From assembly GCA_035433065.1 (NCBI GenBank), contig DAORUH010000001.1, forward strand, positions 1-63,746: a DNA stretch of 63,746 nucleotides, read 5' to 3'. This DNA comes from Devosia sp. GTDB taxonomy: Bacteria; Pseudomonadota; Alphaproteobacteria; Rhizobiales; Devosiaceae. Shown in pieces: positions 7,275 to 29,508 of this stretch (positions are counted from its first letter, which is position 1; each line of letters starts with the position of its first letter). The notes below the pieces were generated by a model. That model ran no database searches. It was given only the letters and a program-made list of their open reading frames with translations, and had not been told where the DNA came from. The translations under genes and the position numbers were made by a program.

Positions 7275-8351
7275 TCATCGGGCGGCGCGGAAGTGCCGCC
7301 CCACCTCGGCGAACAGCCGCAGATCCGCCATCGAATCCTCAAGGCTCGTCTTGTTCGGCGTGCCGTTGACGACGCTGTCGCGGAACGCCTCAAGCTCGAT
7401 CCGGAAGGGGTCTTCGTAGATCGGCCCGATGATCTCCGTCCCCGTATCCGTGTCGCTCGACGTGGTGATCTCAAGCCGCGTCGGCAGGTTGCGGATATAG
7501 GGCGTGTCGTAGTTCAGCTTGAACTGCTGGCGCTGCGTCAGCACCTCGATGCCCGCATCGAACCGCGACACATCGTCGATCACCGCCTCGTAGAGCGCGG
7601 TGAAGTGCCCGTAGTCGAACAGCGCAATCACCGTCTCGCCATTGTGCTGCGTGGCATAGCGCACGCCCTTCGGCGCGCCGAGCAGGTCGCGCATGGCAGA
7701 GAAGCTGTGCGAACTCAGCCCCGTCAGCACCTGATACGCGCGCAGCGCATCCGGAGGGCAGTCCTCGCCCATCACCGTCTTCAGCATGGCCTGCGTCCGC
7801 GCGCGTCCCTCCGCGATCACCGCGGCCGGCACATCGTCAGCGCGGAACACATTGCGCGTCTGCGCCACGAAGAACGGCGCCTCGCGGATGATGTCGCGGA
7901 TGCGCACATGCCCGATCGTCTCGAGCGCCGGCAGCCGGCGCTTGAGCTCCGTGAACCCGCGCGAAAACCGCCGCATATAGCCCACGAACAACACCTGCCC
8001 GGGCCGCCGCGGCACCGACAGGATCGGCTCCAGTTGCGCCGCCGTAAGGCACGCCGGCTTTTCGATGAACACATGCTTGCCCGAGCGGATGGATTTTTCC
8101 AGCAGCTCCGCGTGCAGGTGATCCGGCGTCAGGATGAACACCGCATCCAGCGCCGGATCAGCGATCAGCGCATCGGCGCTCGCGTGCTTGGTGGGCACGC
8201 CATAGCGCTTGGCGATATGGTCGACGAGGCTCGGCGACACATCGGTGATCGCCGTGATCGCAAACCGCGTATCGTCCGCGAGCAGCGGCAGGTGCATCAG
8301 CTGCGCAACTTCACCCAGCCCGATCAGGCCAACCTTCAGCGGCGCGCTCAT
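7275..8351 (-). CDS. Gfo/Idh/MocA family oxidoreductase (inositol 2-dehydrogenase-like)
   Basis: GLIGLG, TPDHLH, HVFIEKP, VGYMRRF. Confidence 0.88.
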   Translation of the reverse strand: MSAPLKVGLIGLGEVAQLMHLPLLADDTRFAITAITDVSPSLVDHIAKRYGVPTKHASADALIADPALDAVFILTPDHLHAELLEKSIRSGKHVFIEKPACLTAAQLEPILSVPRRPGQVLFVGYMRRFSRGFTELKRRLPALETIGHVRIRDIIREAPFFVAQTRNVFRADDVPAAVIAEGRARTQAMLKTVMGEDCPPDALRAYQVLTGLSSHSFSAMRDLLGAPKGVRYATQHNGETVIALFDYGHFTALYEAVIDDVSRFDAGIEVLTQRQQFKLNYDTPYIRNLPTRLEITTSSDTDTGTEIIGPIYEDPFRIELEAFRDSVVNGTPNKTSLEDSMADLRLFAEVGRHFRAAR

Positions 8352-9208
8352 GCGTCGATCGCATTCATGTAAGCAAGGTTTCGCGCCGCGAGCGCCAGCG
8401 GCGTTTCCTTGGCCTGCTCGGCAATGTCCTGTTCCACCACGATCGGCCCGGTAAAGCCGTGCCGCTCAAGCAGCCGCATCACCGCCTGTATGTCCACGGC
8501 GCCATCTGGCAGCGGACACATGATGCCGGCGCGGAACGCCGCGTCCATCGACAGCGCCCCATCAAGCACCTTCGCCCGCACCGCCGGGTCAACATTCTTC
8601 AGGTGCATATAGGCAATCCGCGGGAACACCCGCTCCATATAGGCGAGCACATCCTGCCCCCAATAGGCATGGTGGCCGGTATCGAAACAGAGGTCGACGT
8701 CGGTCTCTTCCAGCAGCCGGTCGATCTGCGCTTCCTTCTCGACGGCCGTGCCCACATGCGGGTGAAAGCTCAGCTTCAGCCCATGCTCGCCTTCGACGAG
8801 ATCGATCGCCGCGCGCACCATGTCGGTCAGCCCCTGCCAGCCGTCCTCGTCGAGCACGCCCTGCTGGTCGGCCGGGTAGAAATTGCTCTCGTCCATGATG
8901 ACGAGATGCTTCGCCCCCAGCGATTTCAGCAGCCCGCTGAGTTCGGTCAGCGTGGTGAGCAGTTCGGGCTTGCTCGATGGGTCGCCGAAAAGGTGCACAT
9001 GCGTCGCCCCGATCATCGTCAGGTTGCGCCGCGCCAGTTCGTCCTTCAGCAGCCCCGCGTCCTTGGGCAGGAAGCCGAAGGGCCCGAGCTCGGTGCCGCG
9101 ATAGCCCGCCGCCGCGACCTCATCGAGGTATTGCTGCCAGGTGTAGGCGTTGCCGGTGGGATAATTGATGCCCCAGGAACAGGGGGCGTTGCCGATCAGC
9201 ATGGTCAT
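8348..9208 (-). CDS. TIM-barrel sugar isomerase/dehydratase, inosose dehydratase (IolE)-like
   Basis: NAPCSWG, GTELGP, FHPHVGT, FDTGH, HLKN, VEQD. Overlaps both neighbours, indicating translational coupling. Confidence 0.82.
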   Translation of the reverse strand: MTMLIGNAPCSWGINYPTGNAYTWQQYLDEVAAAGYRGTELGPFGFLPKDAGLLKDELARRNLTMIGATHVHLFGDPSSKPELLTTLTELSGLLKSLGAKHLVIMDESNFYPADQQGVLDEDGWQGLTDMVRAAIDLVEGEHGLKLSFHPHVGTAVEKEAQIDRLLEETDVDLCFDTGHHAYWGQDVLAYMERVFPRIAYMHLKNVDPAVRAKVLDGALSMDAAFRAGIMCPLPDGAVDIQAVMRLLERHGFTGPIVVEQDIAEQAKETPLALAARNLAYMNAIDA

Positions 9209-16299: not shown

Positions 16300-18234
16300 A
16301 TGACCGCCCCCACCATCCACCTCATCTACAAGACCCATCTCGACATCGGCTTCACCGATCACGCGGCCCGCGTGAGACGGCAGTATCACGAGCAGTTTAT
16401 CCCGCAGGCCATCGCCACCGGCGAGCACTTCTTTGCCGAAGACCCGGCGCACCCCGCCTTCATCTGGACGACCGGCGCATGGCTCATCTGGGATCACCTC
16501 AACACGCAGGATGCCGCCCGCGTCGCGCGCCTCGAACGCGCCATCGAGCGCGGCCTCATCGCCTGGCACGCGCTGCCCTTCACCACGCATACCGAGTTGA
16601 TGAATCCCGCACTGTTCCGCGCCGGCCTGTCCTATGCGCAAGAGCTCGACCGGCGCTTCAACCGCGAGACCATCGCGGCGAAAATGACCGATGTGCCCGG
16701 CCACACGCTGGGCATGGTGCCCATCCTCGCCGAGGCTGGCGTGCGGTTCCTCCACCTCGGCGTGAACACCGCGAGCCCGGTGCCCGACGTGCCGCCGATC
16801 TTTCGCTGGCGCGCGCCCGATGGCAGCGAAATCGTCGTCATGTATCAGGCCTCCTACGGCGACACCGATTTCCCCGCCGGGCCGGATATCGGGCTGAGTT
16901 TTGCCCACACCAGCGACAATATCGGCCCGCAAAGCGTGCCGCAGACGGCCGAGGCCCTGCGCCGCATCCACCACGAGAACCCCGGCGCCACCATCACCGC
17001 CTCGACCCTCGATGCCTTCGGCGCCGCCATGTGGGAGCGCCGCGAGGCCTTCCCCATCGTCGAGCACGAGATCGGCGACAGCTGGATTCACGGCACGGCG
17101 AGCGATCCGCACAAGCTCGCCCGCTTCCGCATGATGCAGCGCCTCCACGACGCATGGGAGCTGGAGCTGACGCCGCGCCGCCTCGCCTTCGGCAGGCAAC
17201 TGGCGCTGGTCGCGGAGCACACCTGGGGCGTCGACATCAAGAGCTACCTGCGCGACGAGACGGCCTTCGACCGCGAGCCCTTCGAGCGTCTCCGCGCGAC
17301 CGACCATCGCTTCGCCTACACCGAACAATCCTGGGCTGAGCAGCGCGCCTATATCGACGAGGCGCTCGGCGCGCTGCACGGCGGGGACCGCGCGCTGGCG
17401 GCGGGGGCACTGCGAGCGCTCGACGTGCCTCCCGCCGCCGCCCCAACTCCCGGCACGCAGCTCAGCGACGGCGGGTGGACGGCAGAACTCTCGCCCGAGA
17501 CCAGCGACATCGTCAGCATCACCGCCCCCTCCGGCCGCATCATCGCGGGCGAGGCTGGAAGCCTGTTCGGCTATCGCCACGAAAGCTACGATTGGGCGGG
17601 CCTGCAAACCCACCTCAATACCTACCTGCAGCACCGTGAAGAATGGGCCATCCTCGATCACGACAAGCCCGGCCTCGCCAACGCTCGCACCGCGCAACAG
17701 GCGGCCTTCGTCCCCACCCATGCCGGCATTGCTGACCGCCGAACAGCTGTCGCAACCATGTCCGAGACGGCCGTCTCACAACTGGGCGCGCCGCTCCGCG
17801 TCGATATCGCCATCAAGGCCGTCCACAACGAGCGGCTCGAACTGACGCTGGTCCTGCGCGGCAAGGCCGCCAATCGTATGCCCGAGGCCGGCTTCCTGAG
17901 CTTCACCCCGGCGACCGCCGGGAACTGGAGCCTCGAAAAGATGGGCCTCTGGCACAGATCCGATGCCATCGTGCGCCGCGGCGGCGGGCAGTTGCAGGCC
18001 GTCACCGCCGTGCGCACGGGCGAGGGCGACACGAGCCTCACGCTCGAACTGCTCGACGCGGCGCTGGTGGCTCCGGCTACGTCGCCCTTCATGCCGTTCC
18101 AGCCCGAGGTGCCGGATTTCTCGCGCGGTGTCCGGGTCAACCTCTACAACAACAAATGGGGCACCAATTTCCCCATGTGGTGGGAGGGCGACGTGCTGTT
18201 CCGCTTCATCCTGGAGCTCCGCGCCTCCGGCTAG
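16300..18234 (+). CDS. DUF5054-type putative glycoside hydrolase (GH38-like N-terminal domain)
   Basis: KTHLDIGFTD (HxD), MTDVPGHT, EIGDSWIHG, EHTWGVD, NLYNNKWGTNFPMW. Confidence 0.78.
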   Translation: MTAPTIHLIYKTHLDIGFTDHAARVRRQYHEQFIPQAIATGEHFFAEDPAHPAFIWTTGAWLIWDHLNTQDAARVARLERAIERGLIAWHALPFTTHTELMNPALFRAGLSYAQELDRRFNRETIAAKMTDVPGHTLGMVPILAEAGVRFLHLGVNTASPVPDVPPIFRWRAPDGSEIVVMYQASYGDTDFPAGPDIGLSFAHTSDNIGPQSVPQTAEALRRIHHENPGATITASTLDAFGAAMWERREAFPIVEHEIGDSWIHGTASDPHKLARFRMMQRLHDAWELELTPRRLAFGRQLALVAEHTWGVDIKSYLRDETAFDREPFERLRATDHRFAYTEQSWAEQRAYIDEALGALHGGDRALAAGALRALDVPPAAAPTPGTQLSDGGWTAELSPETSDIVSITAPSGRIIAGEAGSLFGYRHESYDWAGLQTHLNTYLQHREEWAILDHDKPGLANARTAQQAAFVPTHAGIADRRTAVATMSETAVSQLGAPLRVDIAIKAVHNERLELTLVLRGKAANRMPEAGFLSFTPATAGNWSLEKMGLWHRSDAIVRRGGGQLQAVTAVRTGEGDTSLTLELLDAALVAPATSPFMPFQPEVPDFSRGVRVNLYNNKWGTNFPMWWEGDVLFRFILELRASG

Positions 18235-18281
18235 AAGTGGCCGCTGCACCGGCCAAAACCGATATTCCTCCCAACCTCGGA

Positions 18282-18296
18282 ATAGCTCAAACTTAT
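18282..18296 (+). promoter_or_regulatory. LysR-type T-N11-A box upstream of the aroE-ABC operon
   Basis: ATAGCTCAAACTTAT is the exact reverse complement of 28234-28248. Confidence 0.75.
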
Positions 18297-18425
18297 GGCT
18301 GGCCCGCCAGATTGAAATGGTTGCACCGCTGGTGCTCTGCCAGCCTCCATGGGTTGGCTGGGGGGCCAGGGGAGGATGTCTGGCGTGTGTGCCGTGCACT
18401 GTGGTGCGCCCGGAAAGGGCGCTGA

Positions 18426-19274
18426 ATGAGCCGCCGGAACAAGGCATTCGTGATGGGCCACCCCATCGCGCATTCGCGCTCGCCGCTGATGCACGGCCAC
18501 TGGCTCAAGACCCTGGGCATCACCGGCTCCTATGAGCGGCTCGATGTCGCTCCCGCCGATATCGACACCTTCTTTGCCGGCTTTCGTGATGCCGGTTGGG
18601 TCGGCGGCAATGTCACTGTCCCGCACAAGTCCGCCGTTATCCCGCATCTCGCCGGCCTCGACGCCGCCGCGGAAGCGATGGGCGCGGTCAACACCATTTA
18701 CTGGGATGGCGACGACCTTGTCGGCGGCAATGCCGATGGCATCGGCTTCACCCACAATCTCGATGACCGCGCGCCGGGCTGGGATGCCGGGGCGCGCCGC
18801 GCCGTGGTGATCGGGGCAGGCGGGGCGGCGCGTGCCGCCACTTATGCGCTGCTCGAGCGTGGGCTCGATGTGGCGCTGTGCAACCGCACCGTCGCTCGGG
18901 CCGAACAACTGGCGGCCCGTTTCGGCAAACGCGTCACCGCCCACGGCACCGACGCCTTGCCGAGTCTCATGGCCGATGCCGACCTTCTGGCGCAGACGAC
19001 AAGCCAGGGGATGATCGGCCAGCCGCCGCTCACGCTGGACCTCGCGCCGCTGAAGCCCGGGGCGGTGGTCTGCGACATTGTCTATGTGCCGCTCGACACG
19101 GATCTCCTGAAAGCTGCCCGCCAGCGCGGACACCGCACGGTCGATGGCCTCGGCATGCTGATGCATCAGGCGGTCGTCGGCTTTACCCACTGGTTCGGCC
19201 AGACTCCGGTGGTGACCGATGAGCTCAGGAAGATCCTGACCGACGACATCAAGGCGAAGACGCCGGGGGCATGA
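18426..19274 (+). CDS. aroE: Shikimate dehydrogenase (AroE type, NADP fingerprint)
   Basis: GHPIAHSRSP, NVTVPHK, GAVNT, GAGGAARA, NRT, DIVYVP, DGLGMLMHQA. Confidence 0.9.
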   Translation: MSRRNKAFVMGHPIAHSRSPLMHGHWLKTLGITGSYERLDVAPADIDTFFAGFRDAGWVGGNVTVPHKSAVIPHLAGLDAAAEAMGAVNTIYWDGDDLVGGNADGIGFTHNLDDRAPGWDAGARRAVVIGAGGAARAATYALLERGLDVALCNRTVARAEQLAARFGKRVTAHGTDALPSLMADADLLAQTTSQGMIGQPPLTLDLAPLKPGAVVCDIVYVPLDTDLLKAARQRGHRTVDGLGMLMHQAVVGFTHWFGQTPVVTDELRKILTDDIKAKTPGA

Positions 19275-19376
19275 AGACCTGCCGCGCCGCACGCATAGCC
19301 TGACGCACGACCCGGCCGCACCCCGTGCGCAACCGGAAATCAACGCCCCAACGCGGGTGACATGGGAGGAGACCTG

Positions 19377-20522
19377 ATGATGAGAAGAACAGTGGCAACG
19401 CTGGCCATCGCTTCGGTGGCCGCACTGATGAGCCTGCCGTCGGCCCTGCTGGCGCAGGAAACGGTGAAAATCCCGTGCCTGTGCGAAGCCTCTGGCGCCG
19501 CCGCGGTGTCGGGCACCAATCTGAGCGACGGTGCGCATCTCGCCATCGAGGAGATCAACGCCGCGGGTGGCATCCTCGGCAAGCAGATCGAAATGGTGAA
19601 CTACGACACCCAGTCCGATCCGCAGGTGTCGCGCGCCCTCATGCAGAAGGCCATCGACGACGGCGCCTATGCGGTCGTCGGCACGGTGTTCTCGGGCTCC
19701 ACTATCGTCAACATGCTGGTGTCGCAGCAGGCCGGCGTGCCGCAGTTCACCGGCTCCGAGGCCCCCAATATCACCGCGCAGGGCAACCCCTACATCTTCC
19801 GCACCGCTTCGAGCGCCGCCAAGGGCGTGCCCAGCCTCACCCCGTACTTCAAGGACACGCTGAAGGCGGACAAGGTGGCCGTCGCCTGGGTCAACAACGA
19901 GTTCGGCAAGGGCGGCCACGATGTCTTCGTGGGCGAGATGGAAAAGGCTGGCATCGAGATCGTCGCTGACGTGTCGAGCGAGCAGGGCCAGGCCGATTTC
20001 GCCGCCGACATTTCCAAGATCAAGGAATCCGGCGCCAAGGCCGTGTTCGTCTATCTCAACGAGGAAGAGTCGGCGCGCCTTCTGCGTGAGGCAAAGAAGC
20101 AGGGCCTGTCTATCCCGCTGGTTGGCGAAGTGACGCTCACCGGCCAGAAGGTGATCGAGCTCGCGGGCGATGCCGCCAATGGCGCCTACGCCCATGTGGG
20201 CCTCACCACCGGCGCCGATGTGCCCTCGATCCGCGAATTCGCCGACAAGTTCAATGCCAGGTACAACCGCACGACCGACCACAACGGCATCAAGGGCTAC
20301 ATCGCGGTCTACGCGATCAAGTACCTGACCGAGCTCGTCGGCGGCTTCGACCGCGAAGCGCTCGCCAAGAAGGCGCACGGTCTCACGCTCGACGTCGCGA
20401 CCTATCCGGGTATGCTCCTGACCACGTCATGGGACGACAAGGGTGAGCTTTCGCGCGAAAGCTTCATGACCCAGGTCGTTGACGGCAAGCAGGTCGTGAT
20501 CGGCACCGTTCCGGCCAACTGA
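19377..20522 (+). CDS. HAAT (LivJ-like) ABC transporter substrate-binding protein
   Basis: Signal peptide; AIEEINAAGGILG, NPYIFRT, NNEFGKGG. RBS GGAGG. Confidence 0.92.
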   Translation: MMRRTVATLAIASVAALMSLPSALLAQETVKIPCLCEASGAAAVSGTNLSDGAHLAIEEINAAGGILGKQIEMVNYDTQSDPQVSRALMQKAIDDGAYAVVGTVFSGSTIVNMLVSQQAGVPQFTGSEAPNITAQGNPYIFRTASSAAKGVPSLTPYFKDTLKADKVAVAWVNNEFGKGGHDVFVGEMEKAGIEIVADVSSEQGQADFAADISKIKESGAKAVFVYLNEEESARLLREAKKQGLSIPLVGEVTLTGQKVIELAGDAANGAYAHVGLTTGADVPSIREFADKFNARYNRTTDHNGIKGYIAVYAIKYLTELVGGFDREALAKKAHGLTLDVATYPGMLLTTSWDDKGELSRESFMTQVVDGKQVVIGTVPAN

Positions 20523-20576
20523 TACCGGGTGGCGCCCTCGCCCGGGGGCGCCACTCCACCAACCCCGGAGACGGCC

Positions 20577-21455
20577 TTGTCGCAGTTCCTGCAGGTGCTT
20601 CTATCCGGGCTTGCCACCGGCTCCATCTACGCCCTCGCCGCCATCGGCTTCACGCTGCTCTGGCAGGCGGCGCAGACGGTGAACTTCGCCCAGGGCGAGT
20701 TCGTCATGCTGCCGGCCTTCTTCGTCCTCTTCGCCATCAAGGTGTTGTCCTTCCCCCTCTGGCTGGCGCTGCTGTTCGGGCTGCTGCTGGCCGTCCTGCT
20801 GCTTGGCCTGCTGTTCAAGAAAATCATCGCCGAGCCGATGCAGGGCAATCTCGGCCTGCCGCTGGTCATCGCCACGATGGCCCTCGCCATCCTGATGAAG
20901 GAGAGCACCAAGATGTTCTTCGGGGCCGAGGCGCAGCCCTTCCCCGAACTGTTCCCTGCCGACACCATGAACGTGCTGGGCGCGATCGTCTCGGTGCAGG
21001 ACCTGCTCAACCTCGCGACCTCGCTGCTCTGCGTCGTGGCGCTCTCGATGTTCCTCAACCGCACCCGCACCGGCCGCTGCATGCAGGCCACGGCGCAGAA
21101 CCCCGCTGTCGCCGAAATCCTCGGCGTCAACATCAAGCGCATGGTGCTCTACACCTTCCTCATCAACGCCGCCCTTGCCGCGCTCGCCTCCTTCCTCATC
21201 TCGCCGCTCTATCTGGCAAAGTTCTCCAACGGCGAGACGTTGGGCATCGTGGCCTTCATCGCGGCCATCATCGGCGGCTTCAACCAGATCCGCGGCGCGC
21301 TGGTGGGCGGCCTGCTGATCGGCGTGCTCGACAACCTCGTCGCCACCTACGTCACCGCCGAGTACCGCGCCGCCGTGCCGCTGGTCCTGCTCATCGCCAT
21401 CATCCTGTGGCGGCCGCAGGGCCTGCTCGGCACGTCCGAAGGAAGAAAAGTCTGA
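20577..21455 (+). CDS. HAAT ABC transporter permease (LivH-like)
   Basis: GSIYALAAIG, NFAQGEF, RPQGLLG. TTG start after GGAG. Confidence 0.92.
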   Translation: MSQFLQVLLSGLATGSIYALAAIGFTLLWQAAQTVNFAQGEFVMLPAFFVLFAIKVLSFPLWLALLFGLLLAVLLLGLLFKKIIAEPMQGNLGLPLVIATMALAILMKESTKMFFGAEAQPFPELFPADTMNVLGAIVSVQDLLNLATSLLCVVALSMFLNRTRTGRCMQATAQNPAVAEILGVNIKRMVLYTFLINAALAALASFLISPLYLAKFSNGETLGIVAFIAAIIGGFNQIRGALVGGLLIGVLDNLVATYVTAEYRAAVPLVLLIAIILWRPQGLLGTSEGRKV

Positions 21456-22432
21456 TGCGCGCCTGGATCAAGCCGCTCGCCCTCATCATCGGGCTTGCGC
21501 TGCTCGCGGTCGCGCCGATCGGGCAGGGCAATTACGTCATCCACATCCTCTGCTCGTGGCTGATCTTCACCATCGCCGCGATGGGCCTCAACCTCACCCT
21601 CGGCTATGCCGGGCAGATTTCGCTGGCGCAGGCCTCGTTCATGGCCATCGGCGCCTACGCGACCGCGCTTATCACCCTCGCCGGCCTGCCGTGGATTCTC
21701 GGCCTCGCCAGCTCGATCGTCCTCTGCCTCGCCGTCGGCCTCGCGCTCGGCTTCCCGGCGCTGCGCGTGCAGGGGCACTTCCTCGCCTTCGTGACGCTGG
21801 CGTTCAACACGCTGGTCTTCCTCGTCGCCCGCAACGAGGACTGGCTCACCGGCGGCTCCTACGGCCTCGTCGGCATGCCCCGGCCCAATTTCTTCGGCTT
21901 CGATACCGGCCGGCAGCTGCACTTTTACTACTTCGTGCTCATCGTCTTCATCCTCTCGGCGCTGGTGATGTGGGGCATTGTCCGCTCGCCCTGGGGCCGC
22001 GCCTTCAAGGCCCTGCGCGAAAACCCGATCCGCGCCGAAAGCCTCGGGCTGGATACCCGCACGCTCACGCTCCTCGCCTTCGCCATCGGCTCGGCCTATG
22101 GCGGCATCGCCGGCGCGCTGATGACGCCACTGGTGCAGTTCATCGAACCGGGCACCTTCGCGCTCGGCCACTCGCTGCGCATCCTCTTGATGGTCGTCGT
22201 CGGCGGCGCGGGCTTCTTCTTCGGCCCGCTGCTCGGCGCCGCGGTGGTGATCCTCCTGCCCGAATTCATGCGCTTCACCGAAGGCTACTACCTCATCATC
22301 TACGCCGCCGCCGTCATCGTCCTGATGGTCCTCTGCCCGTCCGGCCTCATCGGGCTGGGCCGCCGCATCGCCGCCCGCTTCCGCCCGCGCACCGAAGCCC
22401 GCGCCGATCTCAAGGAAGGGGCGCAGCTGTGA
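21455..22432 (+). CDS. HAAT ABC transporter permease (LivM-like)
   Basis: GYAGQISLAQ, LTGGSYG, SPWGRAFKALRENP. TGATG coupling with the upstream gene. Confidence 0.92.
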   Translation: MRAWIKPLALIIGLALLAVAPIGQGNYVIHILCSWLIFTIAAMGLNLTLGYAGQISLAQASFMAIGAYATALITLAGLPWILGLASSIVLCLAVGLALGFPALRVQGHFLAFVTLAFNTLVFLVARNEDWLTGGSYGLVGMPRPNFFGFDTGRQLHFYYFVLIVFILSALVMWGIVRSPWGRAFKALRENPIRAESLGLDTRTLTLLAFAIGSAYGGIAGALMTPLVQFIEPGTFALGHSLRILLMVVVGGAGFFFGPLLGAAVVILLPEFMRFTEGYYLIIYAAAVIVLMVLCPSGLIGLGRRIAARFRPRTEARADLKEGAQL

Positions 22433-23190
22433 GCCCCCCGGATGCCGTTCTCGCCGTCACCGATATCGTAAAGCACTTCGGCGCCATCCGCGCCGTCGAT
22501 GGGGTGAGCTTCGATGTCCGCCGTGGGGAAATCCTCGGCCTCATCGGACCCAACGGCTCGGGCAAATCCACCCTCTTCAACTGCATCCTCGGCCAGCTGA
22601 CGCCCACCGGCGGCCGCGTCGAGGTGAAGGGCCAGCCGGTCTCCGGCAAGCGCGCCAACCAGCTGAGCCGGCTCGGCGTCGGCCGCACCTTCCAGCAGCT
22701 TTCCGTCTTCCCGCAGATGACCGTCCTCGACAACATCATCCTCGCCGGCCAGGAGCATCGCGGCACGCTGATCGGCCGGCTGTTCGGCAAGCCCGACGCC
22801 GGCCTCACCGCCGCAGCCGACCAGATGATCGCCTTCTTCCGCTTGACCCACCTGCGCGACCAGATGGCGGGCTCGCTCTCCTACGGCCAGCAGAAGCTCG
22901 TCGATGCCGCGATGGCCTTCATGGCCGGCCCCGATCTGGTGCTGCTCGACGAGCCGGCGGGCGGGGTGAATCTCACCATGCTCGGCGCCCTGCGCGAGCG
23001 GCTGATCGCCTACAACCGCGAGCACGGCACGACCTTCGTCGTCATCGAGCACAACATGGAATTCGTGATGTCGCTGTGCACGCGCATCATCGTGCTCGCC
23101 GAGGGCAAAATCATCGCCGAGGGCACGCCCGGCGAGATCCGCAACAACCAGCTGGTGATCGACGCCTATCTCGGAGGCGGCCATGCTTGA
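22429..23190 (+). CDS. HAAT ABC transporter ATP-binding protein (LivG-like)
   Basis: GPNGSGKST, LSYGQQK, LLDEPAGG, IEHNM. GTG start overlaps the previous stop codon. Confidence 0.92.
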   Translation: MSPPDAVLAVTDIVKHFGAIRAVDGVSFDVRRGEILGLIGPNGSGKSTLFNCILGQLTPTGGRVEVKGQPVSGKRANQLSRLGVGRTFQQLSVFPQMTVLDNIILAGQEHRGTLIGRLFGKPDAGLTAAADQMIAFFRLTHLRDQMAGSLSYGQQKLVDAAMAFMAGPDLVLLDEPAGGVNLTMLGALRERLIAYNREHGTTFVVIEHNMEFVMSLCTRIIVLAEGKIIAEGTPGEIRNNQLVIDAYLGGGHA

Positions 23191-23908
23191 GATCCGCGAT
23201 CTGTTCGGCGGCTACGGCAAGATCACCATCCTCAACGGCGTGAGCTGCACCATCCCGCGCGGCTCGATCACCACCGTCATCGGCCCGAACGGCGCCGGCA
23301 AGTCCACCGTGTTCAAGGCCATCTTCGGCCTCCTCGCCATCCAGTCCGGAAAAATCCTGCTCGAAGGCGAGGACGTGACCGGCCTGCCACCCGCGAAGAT
23401 GATCGCGCGCGGCGTCACCTATGTGCCGCAGGGCCGCAACGTCATCCCGCAGCTTTCGGTCTGGCACAATCTCGAACTGGGCGGCGTCACCGCGCATGAT
23501 CAGAAGCAGGTGCGCCGCCGCATCGATCAGGTGATGGAGCAGTTCCCCATGCTGCGCGAGCGCCAGCACCAGAAGGCCATCGAGCTCTCCGGCGGCCAGC
23601 AGAAGCAGCTCGAAGTCGCCCGCGCCCTGCTGCTCGATCCAAAACTCATCCTCGTCGACGAGCCCTCCATCGGCCTCTCGCCCAACCTCGTGCAGGAGGT
23701 GTTCGCGACGCTGCAGCGCCTGCGCGACAATGGCGTCACCGTGCTGATGATCGAGCAGAACGCCAAGGCGGCGCTGAAGATTTCCGACTACGGCCTCGTC
23801 CTCGAACTCGGCCAGACCCGCATGCACGACCGGGCGGACACGTTGCTCAACGATCCGCGCGTCGGCCGCCTGTTCCTCGGCGGCTCGGTCGAGCCCGCCG
23901 CCACCTGA
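23183..23908 (+). CDS. HAAT ABC transporter ATP-binding protein (LivF-like)
   Basis: GPNGAGKST, LSGGQQKQ, DEPSIGLSP, IEQNA. Confidence 0.93.
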   Translation: MLEIRDLFGGYGKITILNGVSCTIPRGSITTVIGPNGAGKSTVFKAIFGLLAIQSGKILLEGEDVTGLPPAKMIARGVTYVPQGRNVIPQLSVWHNLELGGVTAHDQKQVRRRIDQVMEQFPMLRERQHQKAIELSGGQQKQLEVARALLLDPKLILVDEPSIGLSPNLVQEVFATLQRLRDNGVTVLMIEQNAKAALKISDYGLVLELGQTRMHDRADTLLNDPRVGRLFLGGSVEPAAT

Positions 23909-24747
23909 TGGCCCCCATCCGCCTCGGCATCGTCGGCGACAATGTCGCCCACTCGCAGTCCCCTTCCTTCCACACGCTGGCCGGCCGCCACGCCGGTATC
24001 GACGTGCGGTTCGATCTGATCGAACCCGCCCGCTGGGGCCTCGATTTCGAGGCGGTGATCGCCCGCTGCCGGCGCGAAAACTATGCCGGGCTCAACATCA
24101 CCTATCCCTACAAGGAACGCGTGCTGGCGCTCCTCACCGACGCCGATTCCGACGTTGCGCGGATGGGCTCGTGCAACACCGTGCTGTTTCGCGGCTGGCG
24201 GCTCAGCGGCCACAACACCGACCACACCGGCTTCATGGCCGCCTTCCGCCACGGCTTCGGCCGCCCGCCCGGCACCGCGCTCGTCGTCGGCGCCGGCGGC
24301 GTCGGCCGCGCCGTGGTGCTCGGGCTCGGCAAGCTCGGCGCCAGCCGCATCCTCCTCGCCGACACCGACCGGCTCCGCGCCAAAGCCGTCGCCGCCGATC
24401 TCGCGCCGCACCTCAAATGTCCCATTGAAGTCGTGAGCAACGCCGACGAGGCCGCGCGCCACGCCGATGGCATCGTCAACTGCACGCCGCTTGGCTCAGT
24501 GGGGCACGAAGGCTCGCCCGTGCGAGACGAGAGTCTTACCGGCAAAGCCTGGGCCTTCGATGTCGTCTATGCGTCCGGCGGCACCGCCTTCGGCCAGCAG
24601 GCGGCGCGTGCCGGTGTGCCATTCGCCGGCGGCTATGAGCTGCTGTTCCATCAGGGGCTCGATGTGTTCGAGCTGTTCACCGGCCACACGGTTGCCGATC
24701 CCAAAAAGCTCCGCGCCGAACTGCAGGCGATGGGCGCCACGGCCTAG
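23908..24747 (+). CDS. Shikimate/quinate dehydrogenase family protein (probably NAD-dependent)
   Basis: SQSP, GLNITYPYK, CNTV, GHNTDHTGF, GAGGVGRA. Acidic ADTD replaces NRT. Confidence 0.86.
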   Translation: MAPIRLGIVGDNVAHSQSPSFHTLAGRHAGIDVRFDLIEPARWGLDFEAVIARCRRENYAGLNITYPYKERVLALLTDADSDVARMGSCNTVLFRGWRLSGHNTDHTGFMAAFRHGFGRPPGTALVVGAGGVGRAVVLGLGKLGASRILLADTDRLRAKAVAADLAPHLKCPIEVVSNADEAARHADGIVNCTPLGSVGHEGSPVRDESLTGKAWAFDVVYASGGTAFGQQAARAGVPFAGGYELLFHQGLDVFELFTGHTVADPKKLRAELQAMGATA

Positions 24748-25799
24748 GGAAACACGGTTCCCTCGAACAGCTTCCGCGCCGTCCGCAGCGTCCCCGCCCC
24801 AACAATCTCGCCCGCCGCATCGCGCTCGATCAGCACTTCCGTCGCCCCACTCGGGTGCTCGATGGCAAAGCGCCTGCCGTCCTCCGGTAGCTTCGCGAGC
24901 CCCGCCGCGGGCGAGTCCTCGAACAGGCACGCGGTTGCCACCGTCACCGCGGCCAGAACGCCGATCGAGGCATGGCACCGGTGGGGAATAAAGCTGCGGG
25001 TCGAGATCGCGCCGCCACCAAGTGCCGCCGAAACCAGCGTCATTTTTGGCACCGACTTTTCGGTCACATCGCCAAGGTTCATCAGCGGCCCGGCCTTCAG
25101 CCGGATGCTCTCAAGCCGCGCCTTCAGCGCCGCATTGGCATCGAGCGCCTCGCGCGTCTCGGTGCCGGTCACGCCAACGTCAGTGGCGCGCAGGATCACG
25201 CAGGGCATGCCGTTGTCGATCAGCGTCACGGTGATCCCGTCGATCACGTCGCGCGCCCGGCCCGTCGGCAGCAGCGCGCCGCACATCGATCCGGCAATGT
25301 TCTGGAACAGCAGCGGCACCGGCGCATGCGTCCCCGGCACGCCGTCGATTGACGCCGCGCCCTCATAGGTCACCACGCCGCCCGGCGTCGAAACCTCAGC
25401 CTCAGCCACCTCGCCGGTGTTGAGCATATGGATGCGCACCGGCGTCGTGCCGTCCCGCGCCGCAACCAGCCCCTGCTCGATGGCGAACGGCCCGACGCCC
25501 GCCAGCATGTTGCCGCAGGCCTGCGCGTCGCTCACCAGCGGCTGGTCCACGAACACCTGCAGGAACAGGTAATCCACATCGGCATCCGGCCGCGACGGCG
25601 GGCCGACAATCGCCACCTTCGATGTCAGCGGGTCGGCCCCGCCCATCCCGTCTATCTGCCGCACATCGGGCGAACCCATCACCCGCAGCAACATGCGGTC
25701 ACGCTCCGCCACATCGGCGGGCAGGGCGCCCGCCAGAAAGAACGCGCCCTTCGACGTTCCCCCGCGCATCCATGTGCAGGGGATGCCGCCGCTAGACAT
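24744..25799 (-). CDS. galD: 4-oxalomesaconate tautomerase (PrpF/FldA family)
   Basis: [54 protein letters not shown]. Lies next to galB/galC. Confidence 0.9.
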
Positions 25800-26463
25800 A
25801 CTTCAGGCCCTTTTTGGCCAGGTCCTCGCGCATGCCATACATGTCGAGGCCAAGCTCCCCGGCCGCCAGCCGCGCGCGCTTGCCGGCCTCGGCCGCGAGC
25901 CGCTTGTTGGCGGCGGCAAGCACCGCTGCGGCGTCTTCGCGCCGCACCACGCACACGCCATCATCGTCGGCCACGATCACGTCGCCCGCCTTGATCGCCG
26001 CCCCGGCGCAGACGATCGGCACGTTCACCGAGCCCAGCGTTTCCTTCACCGTGCCCTGCGCCGAAACCGCCTTCGACCACACCGGAAAACCCATCGCCGT
26101 CAGGTCGCGCACGTCACGCACACCTGCGTCGATGACCAGCCCGCGGCACCCGCGCGCCATCGCCGAAGTGGCGAGCAGGTCGCCAAAATAGCCGTTGTCA
26201 CAGGGTGAGGTCGGCGCAACGACGAGGATGTCGCCGTCACGCAATTGCTCGATGGCGACATGCAGCATCCAGTTGTCGCCGGGCGGCACCGAAATGGTCA
26301 CCGCCGAACCGGCAATCTGCGCCCCGGCATAGATCGGGCGCATATGGCTCGCCAGCATGCCGATGCGCCCCTGCGCCTCGTGCACCGTGGCAACGCCGGC
26401 ATGCGCGAGCCCGGCTATGGTCGCGCTGTCGGCGCGCTCGATGTTCTGAACCACGACGCCCAT
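25792..26463 (-). CDS. galC: 4-carboxy-4-hydroxy-2-oxoadipate aldolase / oxaloacetate decarboxylase (GalC/LigK)
   Basis: [53 protein letters not shown]. Confidence 0.92.
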
Positions 26464-27417
26464 TCAACTTTCCTTCTTCTTCGGCGGCGTGCCGTGGGTG
26501 TGGAAGGTTTCGATGGTCTTCAGCCCCCAGGCCTGCCCCTTCTTGCGTTCGGCCTCGGTCCATACGACCGGCTCCCAGTCCGGCGCAAGCACCAGCCGCG
26601 CGCCCGAATTGGCCAGTTCCACGCGGTTGCCGGCGGGCTCCCAGACATAGAGGAAGAATGTTCCCTGGATGGCGTGCTTGTGCGGGCCCTGCTCGATATG
26701 CACGCCATTCTCGAGGAAGATATCGGCGGCGCGGATGATGTCTTCGCGGCTGTCGGTCGCGTAGGTGACGTGGTGCAGCCGCCCGCGCATCCCGCCATGT
26801 TCCTCGGTGCAGGCGAGGTCATAGCCCTTGTTGTTGATGGTGAACCAGCAACCGCCGAGCCGCCCGTTGTCGAGCTGGATCATCTCGGTCACGCGCGAGC
26901 CGAGGCAGGTTTCCATGAACTCACGGAACTCGCTCACGTCGTCGGCGAGGAGGTTGAGGTGGTCGAGCCGCCGCGGCGCTGCCCCGTGGTAGCGCTGGGC
27001 GAGGTTCTTGAGGGCAGGGCGCTCGCCTTGCGGCGGCACATAGCGGTGCGTGTCCCAGTAGATTTCGAACACGTGCCCGAACGGGTCTTCGAAGCGGAAC
27101 GCCCGCCCGTGCCCGAGGTCGCCTTCCACCCAGCCCAGTGTCTTGAAGCGGCTTGCCTCGATGGCAAGCACGCGCCGCATCAGCGCCTCTTCGGAACTCG
27201 CGCGATAGGCCACGTGCCCGATGCCGGTCGTATAATGCCGCGTCAGCTTCAGCGTATGGAACTCATAGTCGTCCCAGGCGCGCAGATACGCCGAGGTCTC
27301 GTCCTCGCCCGACAGCGTCAGCCCATAGACGAGGGTGAAGAAGTCGAGGCTCTCGTCGTACCTGTCGGTGTACATCTCGACATGGGCAAGGTGCGCGATG
27401 TCGAAGCAAAGGGGCAT
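26464..27417 (-). CDS. Type I (VOC-fold) extradiol dioxygenase, catechol 2,3-dioxygenase family
   Basis: YLRAWDDYEFHTL, RLDHLN, LHHVTY, HKHAIQGTFFLYVWEPAGNRVE (Fe(II) His/His/Glu ligands and catalytic Tyr). Confidence 0.88.
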   Translation of the reverse strand: MPLCFDIAHLAHVEMYTDRYDESLDFFTLVYGLTLSGEDETSAYLRAWDDYEFHTLKLTRHYTTGIGHVAYRASSEEALMRRVLAIEASRFKTLGWVEGDLGHGRAFRFEDPFGHVFEIYWDTHRYVPPQGERPALKNLAQRYHGAAPRRLDHLNLLADDVSEFREFMETCLGSRVTEMIQLDNGRLGGCWFTINNKGYDLACTEEHGGMRGRLHHVTYATDSREDIIRAADIFLENGVHIEQGPHKHAIQGTFFLYVWEPAGNRVELANSGARLVLAPDWEPVVWTEAERKKGQAWGLKTIETFHTHGTPPKKKES

Positions 27418-28151
27418 CAGAGTTCGTCCACTGTCCGCGGGAAGACCGACTGGAACCCTTCAGCATATTTCGCGGCGCGTCCACCCGATTGCCCGCCGGA
27501 ATTGCGCTGGAAGTGGTTGGCGCGGTTCTGCGCCAGCCGCGTGTAATACTCCCACAGGTGCTCCTGGCCCTCCATGCATTCGATGGCGGCGCGCTTCTTG
27601 TCCCACACGCCGGTGATGTCGAGGAAGGTGTCGGGCTTCCAGCCCATCTGCTCGGTCTGGTGCGGCTCGAACAGATAGAGCTGCGGCGCGCCCAGCACCT
27701 TTTCGCCCGGCTTGTGCCCCCAGGCCTGCGCGATGCTGCGCGTTTCGAGCGCCACCTCGGTCGCATACATGTGGTCGGTATTGTACGGGTCGTAGTGCGA
27801 GTGGCTGAGCATGAAGGCCGGCTGCACGGCGCGGATCACATCCACCAGCCGGAACTTGTCCGCATCGCTCATGCGTAATGGGTAATCGCCGAGGTCGAAG
27901 CTGATGAGGTCGTGCACGTCGAGCGCCTTGGCGGCCCGTTCGGCCTCGTCGCGGCGCGCCGACTTCACCTTGTCGATGGTCATGCCGGGGAGCTTCCAGA
28001 GTTTGGCGGATTCGCCCCGCTCGCCGAACGACAGGCAGACCACCGTCACCTTGTAGCCAAGCGCCGCATGGTGGGCGATCGCCCCGCCGCAGCGCCAGAC
28101 GAAATCGGCCGCATGCGCGCTGATGACGAGAGCGGTTTTGCTGTCCGGCAT
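27417..28151 (-). CDS. galB: 4-oxalomesaconate hydratase (PIG-L fold)
   Basis: SAHAADFVWRCGG, SFGERGESAKLW, DPYNTDH, FEPHQTEQ, QEHLWEYY. Confidence 0.88.
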   Translation of the reverse strand: MPDSKTALVISAHAADFVWRCGGAIAHHAALGYKVTVVCLSFGERGESAKLWKLPGMTIDKVKSARRDEAERAAKALDVHDLISFDLGDYPLRMSDADKFRLVDVIRAVQPAFMLSHSHYDPYNTDHMYATEVALETRSIAQAWGHKPGEKVLGAPQLYLFEPHQTEQMGWKPDTFLDITGVWDKKRAAIECMEGQEHLWEYYTRLAQNRANHFQRNSGGQSGGRAAKYAEGFQSVFPRTVDEL

Positions 28152-28233
28152 GGTTCCTCGCAAACGCACGGATTGACCCCGCGATCTCGCCGTATCGGAC
28201 GGGACTTGCCAATTCGAAAGGCGGGCCCTGGCG

Positions 28234-28272: not shown

Positions 28273-29508
28273 ATGGCAATAGTTGCAACGAGGCCGGAAA
28301 CCCGGCGCCGCCGGAAAAATGGGGGAGTTCTGGTCCTGATCGCCACGCTGCGCCATCTGCGCGTCTTTTCGGCCGTCGCCCAGACCGGCTCGGTCACCCG
28401 CGCCGCCGAGATTTGCCATGTCTCGCAGCCGGCGGTGACGCAGGCCATCGGCAAGCTCGAACGCGAGGCCGGTGGGCCGCTGTTCCAGCGCACGCCGCAG
28501 GGCCTCTTCCTCACTGCCACCGGCACGGCGCTGGCGGCCCGTGTCGATCGCGCCTTCGGCATGCTCGATCCGGTGCTCACCGAACTCGCGCCGCGCCTCC
28601 GCCTCACGGCCACGGCCGCACAACTTCACGCCCTCGTCGCCATGTGCGAAACCGAAAACTTCACCCTCGCCGCCCGCCGCATGGGCCTCGCCCAGCCGAC
28701 GGTGCATCGCGCCGTCACCCAGCTTGAGCAGGAAGCGGCGCGCCCCCTGTTCGAGCGCACCTCCTACGGCATGATCGCGACCCGGCCCGCGCTGGCGCTC
28801 GCGCAGGCGGCGCAACTGGCCTTTGCCGAACTGGAGCAGGGCGAGGCCGATCTTGCCGAATTCGCCGGCCGCGAGGTTGGCCGCATCGTCATCGGCGCAC
28901 TGCCGCTGTCGCGCTCCTATCTCCTCGCGCGCACCATCGCCCGCTTCCGCAAGCGCCGCCCCACGCTGCCCGTCCGTGTCCTCGATGGTCCCTACAACGA
29001 TCTGATGCAGGGCCTCCGCCGCGGCGAGGTCGATCTCATCATCGGCGCGCTGCGCGACCCCGCCCCCATCGGCGATATCGAGCAGCAGCCGCTGTTCGAC
29101 GATGGCCTCGTCGTCGTCGCCCGCCGCGACCACCCGCTGATCGGCGGCCCGCCGCCCACCCTCGCCGATCTCGCGCGCTACCCGTGGGTGGTCCCCATCG
29201 AACTTGCCCCCACCCGACGCTATTTCGACCGCCTCTTCGCCCCGCTCGGCGACGCCGCGCCGAAAAGCCTCGTCGAGACCGGCTCCATCGTCCTGATGCG
29301 TGAACTGCTGCGCGTGTCCGACCATGTCGGCTGCATCTCGCGGCTGCAGATCGCCGCCGAGATCGACCATGGCCACATCGCCGAAGTCCCCTTCGCGCTC
29401 GAAGGCTCGTCGCGCCCCATCGGCCTCACCATCCGCTCCGGCTGGGTGCCGACCCGCGCGCAGGCCGAGTTCCTCGATGACCTGAGGGCCGTCGCTACGT
29501 CGCCATGA
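28273..29508 (+). CDS. galR: LysR-family regulator with two tandem HTH domains (GalR-like)
   Basis: Two LysR HTHs (GSVTRAAEICHVSQPAVTQAI and ENFTLAARRMGLAQPTVHRAV). Divergent from galB. Start uncertain: ATG 28273, or CTG 28336 after GGGGGAG. Confidence 0.85.
   Translation: MAIVATRPETRRRRKNGGVLVLIATLRHLRVFSAVAQTGSVTRAAEICHVSQPAVTQAIGKLEREAGGPLFQRTPQGLFLTATGTALAARVDRAFGMLDPVLTELAPRLRLTATAAQLHALVAMCETENFTLAARRMGLAQPTVHRAVTQLEQEAARPLFERTSYGMIATRPALALAQAAQLAFAELEQGEADLAEFAGREVGRIVIGALPLSRSYLLARTIARFRKRRPTLPVRVLDGPYNDLMQGLRRGEVDLIIGALRDPAPIGDIEQQPLFDDGLVVVARRDHPLIGGPPPTLADLARYPWVVPIELAPTRRYFDRLFAPLGDAAPKSLVETGSIVLMRELLRVSDHVGCISRLQIAAEIDHGHIAEVPFALEGSSRPIGLTIRSGWVPTRAQAEFLDDLRAVATSP

What the first reader, a model, noticed from the sequence alone, without database searches (positions are those of the whole stretch)
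18282..18320. Identical 15-bp LysR box and conserved promoter layout in two operons 10 kb apart
Seen: ATAGCTCAAACTTAT occurs at 18282-18296 (+) and 28248-28234 (-). Similarity continues downstream in transcription direction: ggctGGCCCGCCagattGAAATGG versus cgccagGGCCCGCCtttcGAATTGG, at near-identical spacing. The box fits the LysR T-N11-A rule. Inference: the GalR-like protein activates both promoters. This is the strongest sequence evidence tying the aroE/ABC operon to the gal genes.
Basis: seen in the sequence. Interest (0 to 1): 0.7.

Follow-up and report, generated by a model that had tools for sequence, protein, structure and literature searches.

The report
Gallate regulator box controls captured transporter
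The same 15-base box sits in front of a set of genes that likely break down the plant acid gallate and in front of a transporter operon 10 kb away, and it matches a motif found before such genes in many related bacteria, so one known type of regulator (GalR/LigR) likely switches on both; this is mostly ordinary gene control, with the twist that the transporter operon was likely recruited from quinate/shikimate use.

Summary
Confirmed. ATAGCTCAAACTTAT occurs at 18282 (+) and 28248 (-) and nowhere else in the 3.0-Mb genome within 2 mismatches. A matrix built only from 32 galB-side promoters of other genomes (ATAGC-N6-TTAT, 14 bases, then an AT-rich element at the -35) scores the two sites 42.4 and 39.0 bits; the next site scores 17.4. 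A pattern from it occurs in 33 of 35 genomes with this regulator and 2 of 20 same-genus genomes without it. It resembles the footprinted LigR site. So the adjacent two-HTH LysR protein likely activates both promoters; binding is untested. Corrections: T-N11-A alone is uninformative (201,690 matches), and GGCCCGCC is 2 bases out of register in an unconserved spacer; the conserved second element is the AT-rich one. Second boxes usually precede a transporter (13 of 16 chosen cases). This transporter family elsewhere travels with quinate/shikimate genes (19 of 24 loci). One other genome put it behind a visibly duplicated galB promoter. Verdict: a GalR/LigR-type regulon with a recruited input module whose substrate is unproven.

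The parts
18282..18296 (+). Predicted GalR recognition site (ATAGC-N6-TTAT) of the aroE1-livKHMGF-aroE2 promoter
   Evidence: 39.0 bits for the bipartite site on a matrix from other genomes
18311..18323 (+). Conserved AT-rich element (likely activation site) running into a predicted -35 (18318-18323)
   Evidence: positions 30-39 conserved in 32 promoters; this part scores 14.2 bits; the -35 label is inferred
18341..18346 (+). Predicted weak -10 (CAGCCT)
   Evidence: A at motif position 61 in 22 and T at position 65 in 21 of the 31 training rows with letters there; the strict sigma-70 scan found no promoter
18376..18429 (+). 17-codon leader ORF whose stop overlaps the aroE1 start; possibly a decayed galB 5' end
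   Evidence: starts 94 bases after the box versus 97 for galB; no significant sequence likeness to galB
18426..19274 (+). aroE1, AroE-type shikimate dehydrogenase paralog (NRT motif; likely NADP)
   Evidence: NF001312 361.6 bits, cut-off 295; housekeeping aroE lies on C64; S17, S19, K68, N89, D104, Q248 kept
19362..23908 (+). livKHMGF-type ABC importer; clade elsewhere linked to quinate/shikimate genes
   Evidence: 19 of 24 other loci have an SDH gene within 6.5 kb, 13 of 24 a quiC-like gene within 10 kb
23908..24747 (+). aroE2, quinate/shikimate dehydrogenase-like (likely NAD)
   Evidence: best PDB match 3JYO quinate/shikimate dehydrogenase, E 6e-35; below all curated NCBIfam cut-offs
24744..25799 (-). 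galD, 4-oxalomesaconate tautomerase
   Evidence: NF033377 526.1 bits, cut-off 440
25792..26463 (-). [quoted passage not shown]
   Evidence: TIGR02798 378.4 bits, cut-off 304.5
26464..27417 (-). Type I (VOC) extradiol dioxygenase, likely the gallate ring-cleaving enzyme in place of GalA
   Evidence: TIGR03211 282.7 bits, below the 320.2 cut-off; PDB 9WGJ E 1e-104; an ortholog sits in galB-dioxygenase-galC-galD-tannase order on an Agrobacterium plasmid
27417..28151 (-). galB, 4-oxalomesaconate hydratase (PIG-L family)
   Evidence: PDB 5CGZ 4-oxalomesaconate hydratase, E 1.5e-93
28184..28189 (-). Predicted weak -10 of the galB promoter (CGAGAT)
   Evidence: position inferred; fits poorly; the strict scan found no promoter
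28207..28219 (-). Conserved AT-rich element (likely activation site) and predicted -35 (TTGGCA) of the galB promoter
   Evidence: 14.6 bits
28234..28248 (-). Predicted GalR recognition site of the galB operon, in the galB/galR divergent region
   Evidence: 42.4 bits
28336..29508 (+). GalR/LigR-type LysR regulator with two helix-turn-helix domains; likely CTG start at 28336 (longer frame from ATG 28273)
   Evidence: PF00126 matched twice; the two HTHs are 40% identical; 41.5% to Sphingobium FldY over 378 residues; start alignment

Best explanation
Both copies of the 15-mer are likely binding sites for the two-HTH LysR protein encoded beside galB, which would activate two facing operons: galB-dioxygenase-galC-galD, predicted to break gallate down through 4-oxalomesaconate (OMA), and aroE1-livKHMGF-aroE2, predicted to import and oxidise quinate/shikimate-type acids. 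Shown in sequence: each promoter has ATAGC-N6-TTAT, then 14 free bases, then an AT-rich element, in the register conserved across relatives. Inferred: the box is the high-affinity site centred near -64; the AT-rich element is the activation site next to a weak -35; OMA is the effector, as for Pseudomonas GalR; and the galB-side box also tunes the divergent galR gene. Also inferred: the transporter operon was brought under this control by a copied galB promoter, as is visible in genome G341. The likely logic is that the OMA signal also opens uptake of related plant acids, which go on either to this genome's QuiC/PcaHG route or, by a second AroE oxidation, to gallate.
For: A matrix from other genomes only ranks the two sites first and second in the genome with a 21-bit gap to the third. 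The pattern is in 33 of 35 regulator-bearing genomes and 2 of 20 controls (the training promoters come largely from these genomes, and kin are not independent). Footprinted LigR sites carry TT-N-GC-N6-TTAT at about -51 to -85 (PMC12710314); a Sphingobium ligR cluster shows near variants of the same two-part layout before both flanking operons. P. putida GalR activates both a catabolic and a transport operon, with OMA as likely effector (PMC9942251, PMC12314914). 13 of 16 second boxes that I chose from other genomes precede a transporter. A tannase lies behind a weaker box in G137 (20.7 bits) and after galD on a walnut Agrobacterium plasmid. In G341 a 37.5-bit box, a copied galB promoter and a decayed galB start precede an SDH gene and the same transporter clade (local score 141 versus shuffle mean 23.5, 0 of 1000). 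Its same-genus relative G399 has the regulator but keeps the older module with no box. G403 has galB-galC-aroE1-livKHMGF in one run of genes.
Against: No binding, transcript or start-site data. The -10 elements are poor and the strict scan finds no promoter. The transporter has no close solved relative (best E 6e-27), so its substrate rests on gene neighbourhood. Only 2 of 24 other loci of the clade lie near galB/C/D, and the automated test found 0 of 24 with a box upstream; G341 is added only across a contig break joined by a 141-base overlap. G403 has no box and no match to this regulator. Four close aroE1 relatives (63-68%) in another family have no gal genes or box in the stretches read. 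Duplication in this genome is weakly supported: the promoter core ranks 1 of 39 against its own galB promoter (z 3.1), partly because the box was picked for being identical, but the longer window ranks 5 of 39, and the region after the -35 is no more alike than shuffles. The left half-site differs from LigR's and from the predicted P. putida site.
Confidence: 0.8

Rival explanations
1. Same regulation, but the ABC importer carries gallate (or a related aromatic acid) itself and fills the usual transporter slot of the regulon; the two dehydrogenases are passengers from the module's past.
For: 13 of 16 chosen second boxes precede a transporter, and no TRAP or 4EVS-like binding protein of the kinds that fill that slot elsewhere was found in this genome (best hit 28% for the TRAP query, none listed for the other). 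aroE1 departs from near-invariant residues (A103 where 111 of 119 relatives have T; Q190 where 116 have N).
Against: The binding protein is not of the clade found beside gal genes elsewhere: that clade matches PDB 4EVS/4F06 at E 1e-122, this one at E 4e-9 (that those entries bind aromatic acids is recalled). Its own clade travels with SDH and quiC. Both SDH frames are intact, with G+C at third codon positions of 0.82 and 0.86.
Confidence: 0.3
2. The aroE-side box is a leftover of a promoter duplication or rearrangement and no longer matters; the operon is read from elsewhere or not at all.
For: Identity at all 15 positions is more than function needs: about 0.6% by column frequencies, 6 of 496 between-genome pairs, 2 of 22 within-genome pairs including this one. 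The arrangement was seen in no other genome of the genus (1 of 63 has the regulator, 1 of 63 the transporter, different genomes).
Against: The conserved positions (box and AT-rich element, in register) are kept while the spacer, upstream DNA and leader have diverged, which is the pattern that selection leaves. G341 shows a parallel capture.
Confidence: 0.1
3. Another LysR protein, such as the PcaQ-like regulator on contig C54, binds the boxes.
For: The regulator's closest curated family is PcaQ (229 bits, below the 303.8 cut-off), and a distant paralog lies beside pcaHG on C54. Some transporter relatives have a different LysR palindrome, ATAAC-N5-GTTAT.
Against: The pattern tracks the two-HTH regulator, not the genus: 2 of 20 same-genus genomes without it match, and those two matches look like noise. 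No strong site lies on C54 or C32.
Confidence: 0.04
4. The 15-mer is a chance match, a dispersed repeat or an assembly artefact.
For: The window has 173 repeated 15-mers.
Against: Two copies only in 3.0 Mb, both intergenic and upstream of an operon; conserved in relatives; covered without a differing letter by contigs of another study.
Confidence: 0.01

Closest known systems
Pseudomonas putida KT2440 and Pseudomonas sp. NGC7 GalR regulon (galBCD, galTAP)
   Same: LysR gene divergent from galB; galB, galC, galD present; two promoters, one catabolic and one with a transporter; predicted recognition site ATA-N9-AT (ATAAANAAANNGNAT; NGC7 ATAAGTAAAAAGTAT) with a second site near the -35 (PMC12314914, PMC9942251; passages).
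   Different: Half-sites here are ATAGC and TTAT. The dioxygenase is a type I VOC enzyme inside the galB operon, not GalA. The transporter is a liv-type ABC system flanked by two shikimate dehydrogenases, not GalT/GalP. PMC9942251 states that no GalR site had been characterised experimentally.
LigR of Novosphingobium aromaticivorans and Sphingobium SYK-6 (FldY clade)
   Same: Two sites before two flanking operons of the OMA lower pathway; footprint consensus TT-N-GC-N6-TTAT about -51 to -85 (PMC12710314, passages and section 9); 41.5% identity to a Sphingobium FldY whose cluster has the ligK-ligR layout.
   Different: First base A rather than T (ATAGC versus TTNGC). Hydratase is GalB, not LigJ. 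No ligAB, ligC or ligI ortholog was found in this 81%-complete genome.
Quinate/shikimate uptake modules of Alphaproteobacteria (SDH-livKHMGF-quiC), e.g. Rhizobium sp. TCK and R. leguminosarum CB782 plasmids
   Same: Same transporter clade (binding protein 47-77% identical) directly behind a shikimate dehydrogenase gene.
   Different: There the module sits with a one-HTH LysR, IclR or TetR-like gene and often quiC, without this box. Here quiC is on another contig (C32) and a second SDH closes the operon. The substrate of these modules is itself inferred from neighbours; one search found no paper testing it.
Rhodococcus opacus PD630 type I catechol 2,3-dioxygenase AHK27425.1
   Same: A type I extradiol dioxygenase shown to consume gallate (PMC8442903, section 6); the window enzyme has motifs at matching spacing (about H153, H216, E267).
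   Different: I could not compare the two sequences directly. The paper proposes 2,3-cleavage to a semialdehyde, whereas the galBCD context here requires cleavage to OMA.

Membership tests
LysR-type operator | T-N11-A core with imperfect dyad symmetry | tested here: met
   ATA-N9-TAT in both copies; feature as described in PMC11495319 (passages); weak on its own
LysR-type operator | Second, less symmetric site between the recognition site and the -35 | tested here: met
   conserved AT-rich element at positions 30-39 in 32 promoters and both window sites; that it binds protein is inferred
LysR-type operator | Centre about 65 bases upstream of the transcription start | tested here: inconclusive
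   about -64 if the weak xAxxxT at positions 60-65 is the -10; no start-site data; strict scans empty
GalR/LigR regulon | LysR regulator of about 390-400 residues with two HTH domains (recalled for P. putida GalR) | tested here: met
   two PF00126 matches, HTH1 versus HTH2 40% identical, full-length match to FldY; P. putida GalR itself was not available for comparison
GalR/LigR regulon | Regulator divergent from OMA lower-pathway genes | tested here: met
   galB, galC, galD assigned by PDB 5CGZ and NCBIfam cut-offs
GalR/LigR regulon | Operator with GC-N6-TTAT as in LigR footprints | tested here: met
   GC-TCAAAC-TTAT; differs at the first base from TT-N-GC
GalR/LigR regulon | Direct binding and effector-dependent activation (OMA) | not testable with these tools
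   needs EMSA, footprint or reporter
P. putida gal pathway in the strict sense | GalA/LigAB-type (type II) dioxygenase and GalT/GalP transport | tested here: not met
   no LigA or LigB hit in the genome at E 1e-12 (genome 81% complete); VOC dioxygenase and ABC importer instead
AroE-type shikimate dehydrogenase (aroE1) | Curated score and catalytic Lys/Asp, substrate Ser/Asn/Gln, NRT cofactor motif | tested here: met
   361.6 bits over 295; residues kept, with T103A and N190Q changes; residue roles recalled
Dispersed repeat (REP/MITE-like) | Many copies across the genome | tested here: not met
   2 copies, none other within 2 mismatches

The most novel reading that the evidence does not exclude
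The box marks a catabolic route from shikimate/quinate to gallate: the ABC importer brings in the hydroaromatic acid, AroE2 and AroE1 oxidise it through 3-dehydroshikimate to gallate (a side reaction reported for E. coli AroE in PMC3057006), and a VOC-fold gallate dioxygenase with GalBCD finishes it. The module was tied to the OMA pathway at least three times: here, by promoter duplication in G341, and by operon fusion in G403. That would be a bacterial route that bypasses protocatechuate, and a case of regulon growth by promoter copying caught in the act.
Probability: 0.17. Interest if true: 0.72.

Novelty: new member of a known kind. Interest (0 to 1): 0.36.

Why it matters
It gives a sharp, testable operator consensus for GalR-clade regulators of Alphaproteobacteria, where Pseudomonas GalR sites are only predicted. 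The motif works as a probe for regulon members (TRAP and ABC importers, tannase, a flavin monooxygenase) and points to a VOC-fold enzyme as the likely gallate dioxygenase of rhizobia and agrobacteria. It also shows how a regulon can gain an operon by copying a promoter. If the shikimate-to-gallate reading holds, it adds a route to aromatic catabolism; if not, this is ordinary LysR control.

Tried and rejected
T-N11-A as evidence: rejected, 201,690 genome matches. GGCCCGCC as a functional element: rejected, though 8-base shared words are rare among spacer pairs (3 of 496), so it may be a trace of common origin. Further regulon members in this genome: none; a third ATAGC-N6-TTAT on C26 lacks the second element, and the genome is 81% complete. 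Strict sigma-70 scans found no promoter at either site. aroE1 as a gal-specific clade: not supported, 4 of 4 relatives found in a 300-genome family search are unlinked; 4 weaker hits are housekeeping-like or unlinked; plasmid search empty; of 54 metagenome loci one (L177) was a close relative with quiC and the transporter and no box. The leader ORF as a galB remnant: spacing fits, sequence does not. Expression: no RNA holder listed. The SYK-6 LigR footprint paper was not held. Literature searches found no paper on this motif in rhizobia, on an SDH/ABC operon under GalR, or on this transporter; the library lacks most subscription journals. Earlier findings of this scan: none shown. No structure or complex prediction was run.

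Full report
Observation. ATAGCTCAAACTTAT lies at 18282-18296 (+) and 28248-28234 (-). It has no other match within 3 mismatches in the window (chance mean 0.15; 1 of 100 shuffles reached 2) and none within 2 mismatches in the 3.0-Mb, 81%-complete genome. Of 173 repeated 15-mers in the window it is the only one with fewer than 7 G+C. Contigs from a run of another study cover both sites and their downstream genes without a differing letter. The holders of this DNA are activated-sludge metagenomes.

Anatomy. The two boxes head two operons that face each other. On the + strand: aroE1, a liv-type ABC importer of five genes, and aroE2. On the - strand: galB (PDB 5CGZ, E 1.5e-93), a type I extradiol dioxygenase, galC and galD. 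Divergent from galB is a LysR gene with two HTH domains, 41.5% identical to a Sphingobium FldY. Its likely start is CTG 28336: 12 of 36 homologs have ATG or GTG at that codon, one more has CTG, and a G-rich ribosome site lies 8 bases upstream. The genome has a separate housekeeping aroE (C64), a quinate cluster with quiC (C32) and pcaHG (C54); no ligAB, ligI, pobA or tannase B hit and only weak ligC hits were found.

The motif in other genomes. Homologs of the regulator were found in 23 of 200 genomes of the family, 14 of 400 of the order and 8 close loci of a GTDB scan. I aligned the 32 boxes that a plain ATA-N9-TAT search found before galB or the first catabolic gene; loci whose box deviates from that core (L007, L071, L082, L083) or that are near copies (L003, L106) were left out of training. 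Positions 1-5 (ATAGC) and 12-15 (TTAT) are the same in 32 of 32 (six of these nine by the selection itself). Positions 16-29 are free. Positions 30-39 are conserved again (T37 in 32, A35 in 29, G39 in 27). A weak xAxxxT follows at 60-65. Read as -35 at 37-42 and -10 at 60-65, the box centre falls near -64, the usual place of a LysR recognition site. A matrix from these 32 scores the window's sites 42.4 and 39.0 bits (training range 23.7-45.3); the next genome site scores 17.4 and the best reversed-genome site 14.9. A fixed pattern matched 33 of 35 regulator-bearing genomes and 2 of 20 same-genus genomes lacking it; of the two further genomes in that call, G341 matched and G403 did not. Training and test overlap and kin are not independent; held-out cases are two Agrobacterium plasmids (39-45 bits), an Azospirillum plasmid (27.6) and G341 (41.8, 37.5). 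A Sphingobium ligR cluster scored poorly (best 6.7 bits) because its left half-site differs, but near variants of the two-part layout stand before both of its operons.

The T-N11-A rule matches 201,690 places. GGCCCGCC is 2 bases out of register and lies in the free spacer. The AT-rich element, in exact register, is the second conserved part.

Known systems. Footprinted LigR sites in Novosphingobium and SYK-6 share TT-N-GC-N6-TTAT at about -51 to -85 (PMC12710314; passages and section 9). For Pseudomonas GalR, sites are predicted, two operons are activated, and OMA is the likely effector (PMC9942251 and PMC12314914; passages). General LysR site layout is from passages of PMC11495319. A type I dioxygenase of Rhodococcus opacus consumes gallate (PMC8442903; passages and section 6). 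E. coli AroE forms gallate from shikimate in vitro (PMC3057006; passages). The SYK-6 paper was not held, and the two-HTH nature of P. putida GalR is recalled.

What second boxes control. Of 16 second promoters that I chose from strong hits in other genomes, 6 precede a TRAP importer, 6 another liv-type importer, 2 a flavin monooxygenase, 1 the dioxygenase and 1 an SDH-liv operon. Left out were weaker or unpaired sites, among them one before a tannase B gene (20.7 bits), one before an MFS-like gene, one before DUF1932-galR and one before a sugar-type ABC operon. A box before a transporter is thus the normal state, as with galTAP. Orthologs of the dioxygenase (84%) lie on plasmids of walnut and grapevine agrobacteria in the order galB-dioxygenase-galC-galD, followed by a tannase or esterase gene, which supports gallate as substrate.

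The unusual part. This transporter is not the clade usually beside gal genes. Of 24 other loci of its own clade, 19 have an SDH gene, 13 a quiC-like gene, 2 galB/C/D, and 0 a box within 1.8 kb upstream on the same contig. One of those two, G341, hides a box across a contig break: the end of C78 overlaps the start of C1 by 141 identical bases and the two halves of one SDH meet there. Upstream lie a 37.5-bit box, a copy of the galB promoter and a decayed galB start (local score 141; 0 of 1000 shuffles), in the place where related modules, including same-genus G399, have an epimerase-like gene. The other, G403, has DUF1932-galB-galC-aroE1-livKHMGF under a one-HTH LysR with no box. For the window itself, origin by duplication is plausible but not shown: identity at all 15 bases has a prior of about 0.6-1.2%, the core ranks 1 of 39 against its own galB promoter, and a 17-codon ORF starts 94 bases after the box against 97 for galB, yet the longer region ranks 5 of 39 and is no more alike than shuffles after the -35. 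Against a dedicated pathway, four close aroE1 relatives are unlinked to gal genes.

Mechanism and verdict. The regulator likely binds both boxes and, with OMA, activates both operons (about 0.85 for joint control, 0.8 for the account as a whole). For the module's cargo my rough odds are: quinate/shikimate passed to QuiC/PcaHG 0.35, gallate or a similar aromatic 0.3, shikimate converted to gallate 0.17, relic or other 0.18. This is a new member of the GalR/LigR kind with a swapped dioxygenase and a recruited input operon. Searches found no description of this arrangement in the held library. Interest 0.36.

Noticed in passing
window 28321-28338 (+): The regulator probably starts at a CTG codon (28336) behind GGGGGAG; the codon aligns with ATG/GTG starts of 12 of 36 homologs, and one other homolog (L008) has CTG there.
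   Followed up: partly
window 18376-18429 (+): A 17-codon ORF whose stop overlaps the aroE1 start, at nearly the galB start distance from the box; a stem-loop overlaps the predicted -10 region.
   Followed up: partly
L269 about 7886-8400 (G341:C78) and L151 1-10094 (G341:C1): Duplicated galB promoter plus decayed galB start inserted before an SDH-livKHMGF operon, replacing an epimerase-like gene; contigs overlap by 141 bases.
   Followed up: yes
window 26464-27417 (-); L248 12001-12963; L249 12001-12963: A VOC-fold dioxygenase stands where GalA would be; orthologs are on walnut and grapevine Agrobacterium plasmids next to tannase/esterase genes, and its closest PDB entry (9WGJ) is labelled catechol 1,2-dioxygenase.
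   Followed up: partly
L067 8627-9550; L249 5388-6272; L267 8187-9107: A DUF1932 NAD(P)-binding protein lies in most gal/lig clusters, often just before or after the regulator, but is missing from this window's cluster (a 38% homolog is on C51).
   Followed up: no
window 18426-19274 (+): AroE1 has Ala103 and Gln190 where 111 and 116 of 119 close relatives have Thr and Asn.
   Followed up: partly
L157 10888; L158 9429; L169 4242; L171 3783: A different LysR-like palindrome, ATAAC-N5-GTTAT, precedes SDH-liv-quiC modules of the same transporter clade in four other genomes.
   Followed up: no
L148 15732-16654 (G403): The dioxygenase homolog beside the galB-galC-aroE1-liv operon matches in two pieces in different frames or ORFs; it may be split or hold a sequencing error.
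   Followed up: no
L081, L082, L083, L105, L109, L237, L243: The same box heads clusters where galB/C/D sit with ligAB, ligI, ligC and often pobA, so this regulator clade also serves protocatechuate 4,5-cleavage with GalB in place of LigJ.
   Followed up: partly
window 16300-18234 (+): A DUF5054 protein with its LacI regulator ends 47 bases before the first box on the same strand, with no terminator found in 18150-18500, so read-through into aroE1 is possible.
   Followed up: no
window 24744-24747: The two facing operons end with overlapping stop codons of aroE2 and galD and no spacer.
   Followed up: no
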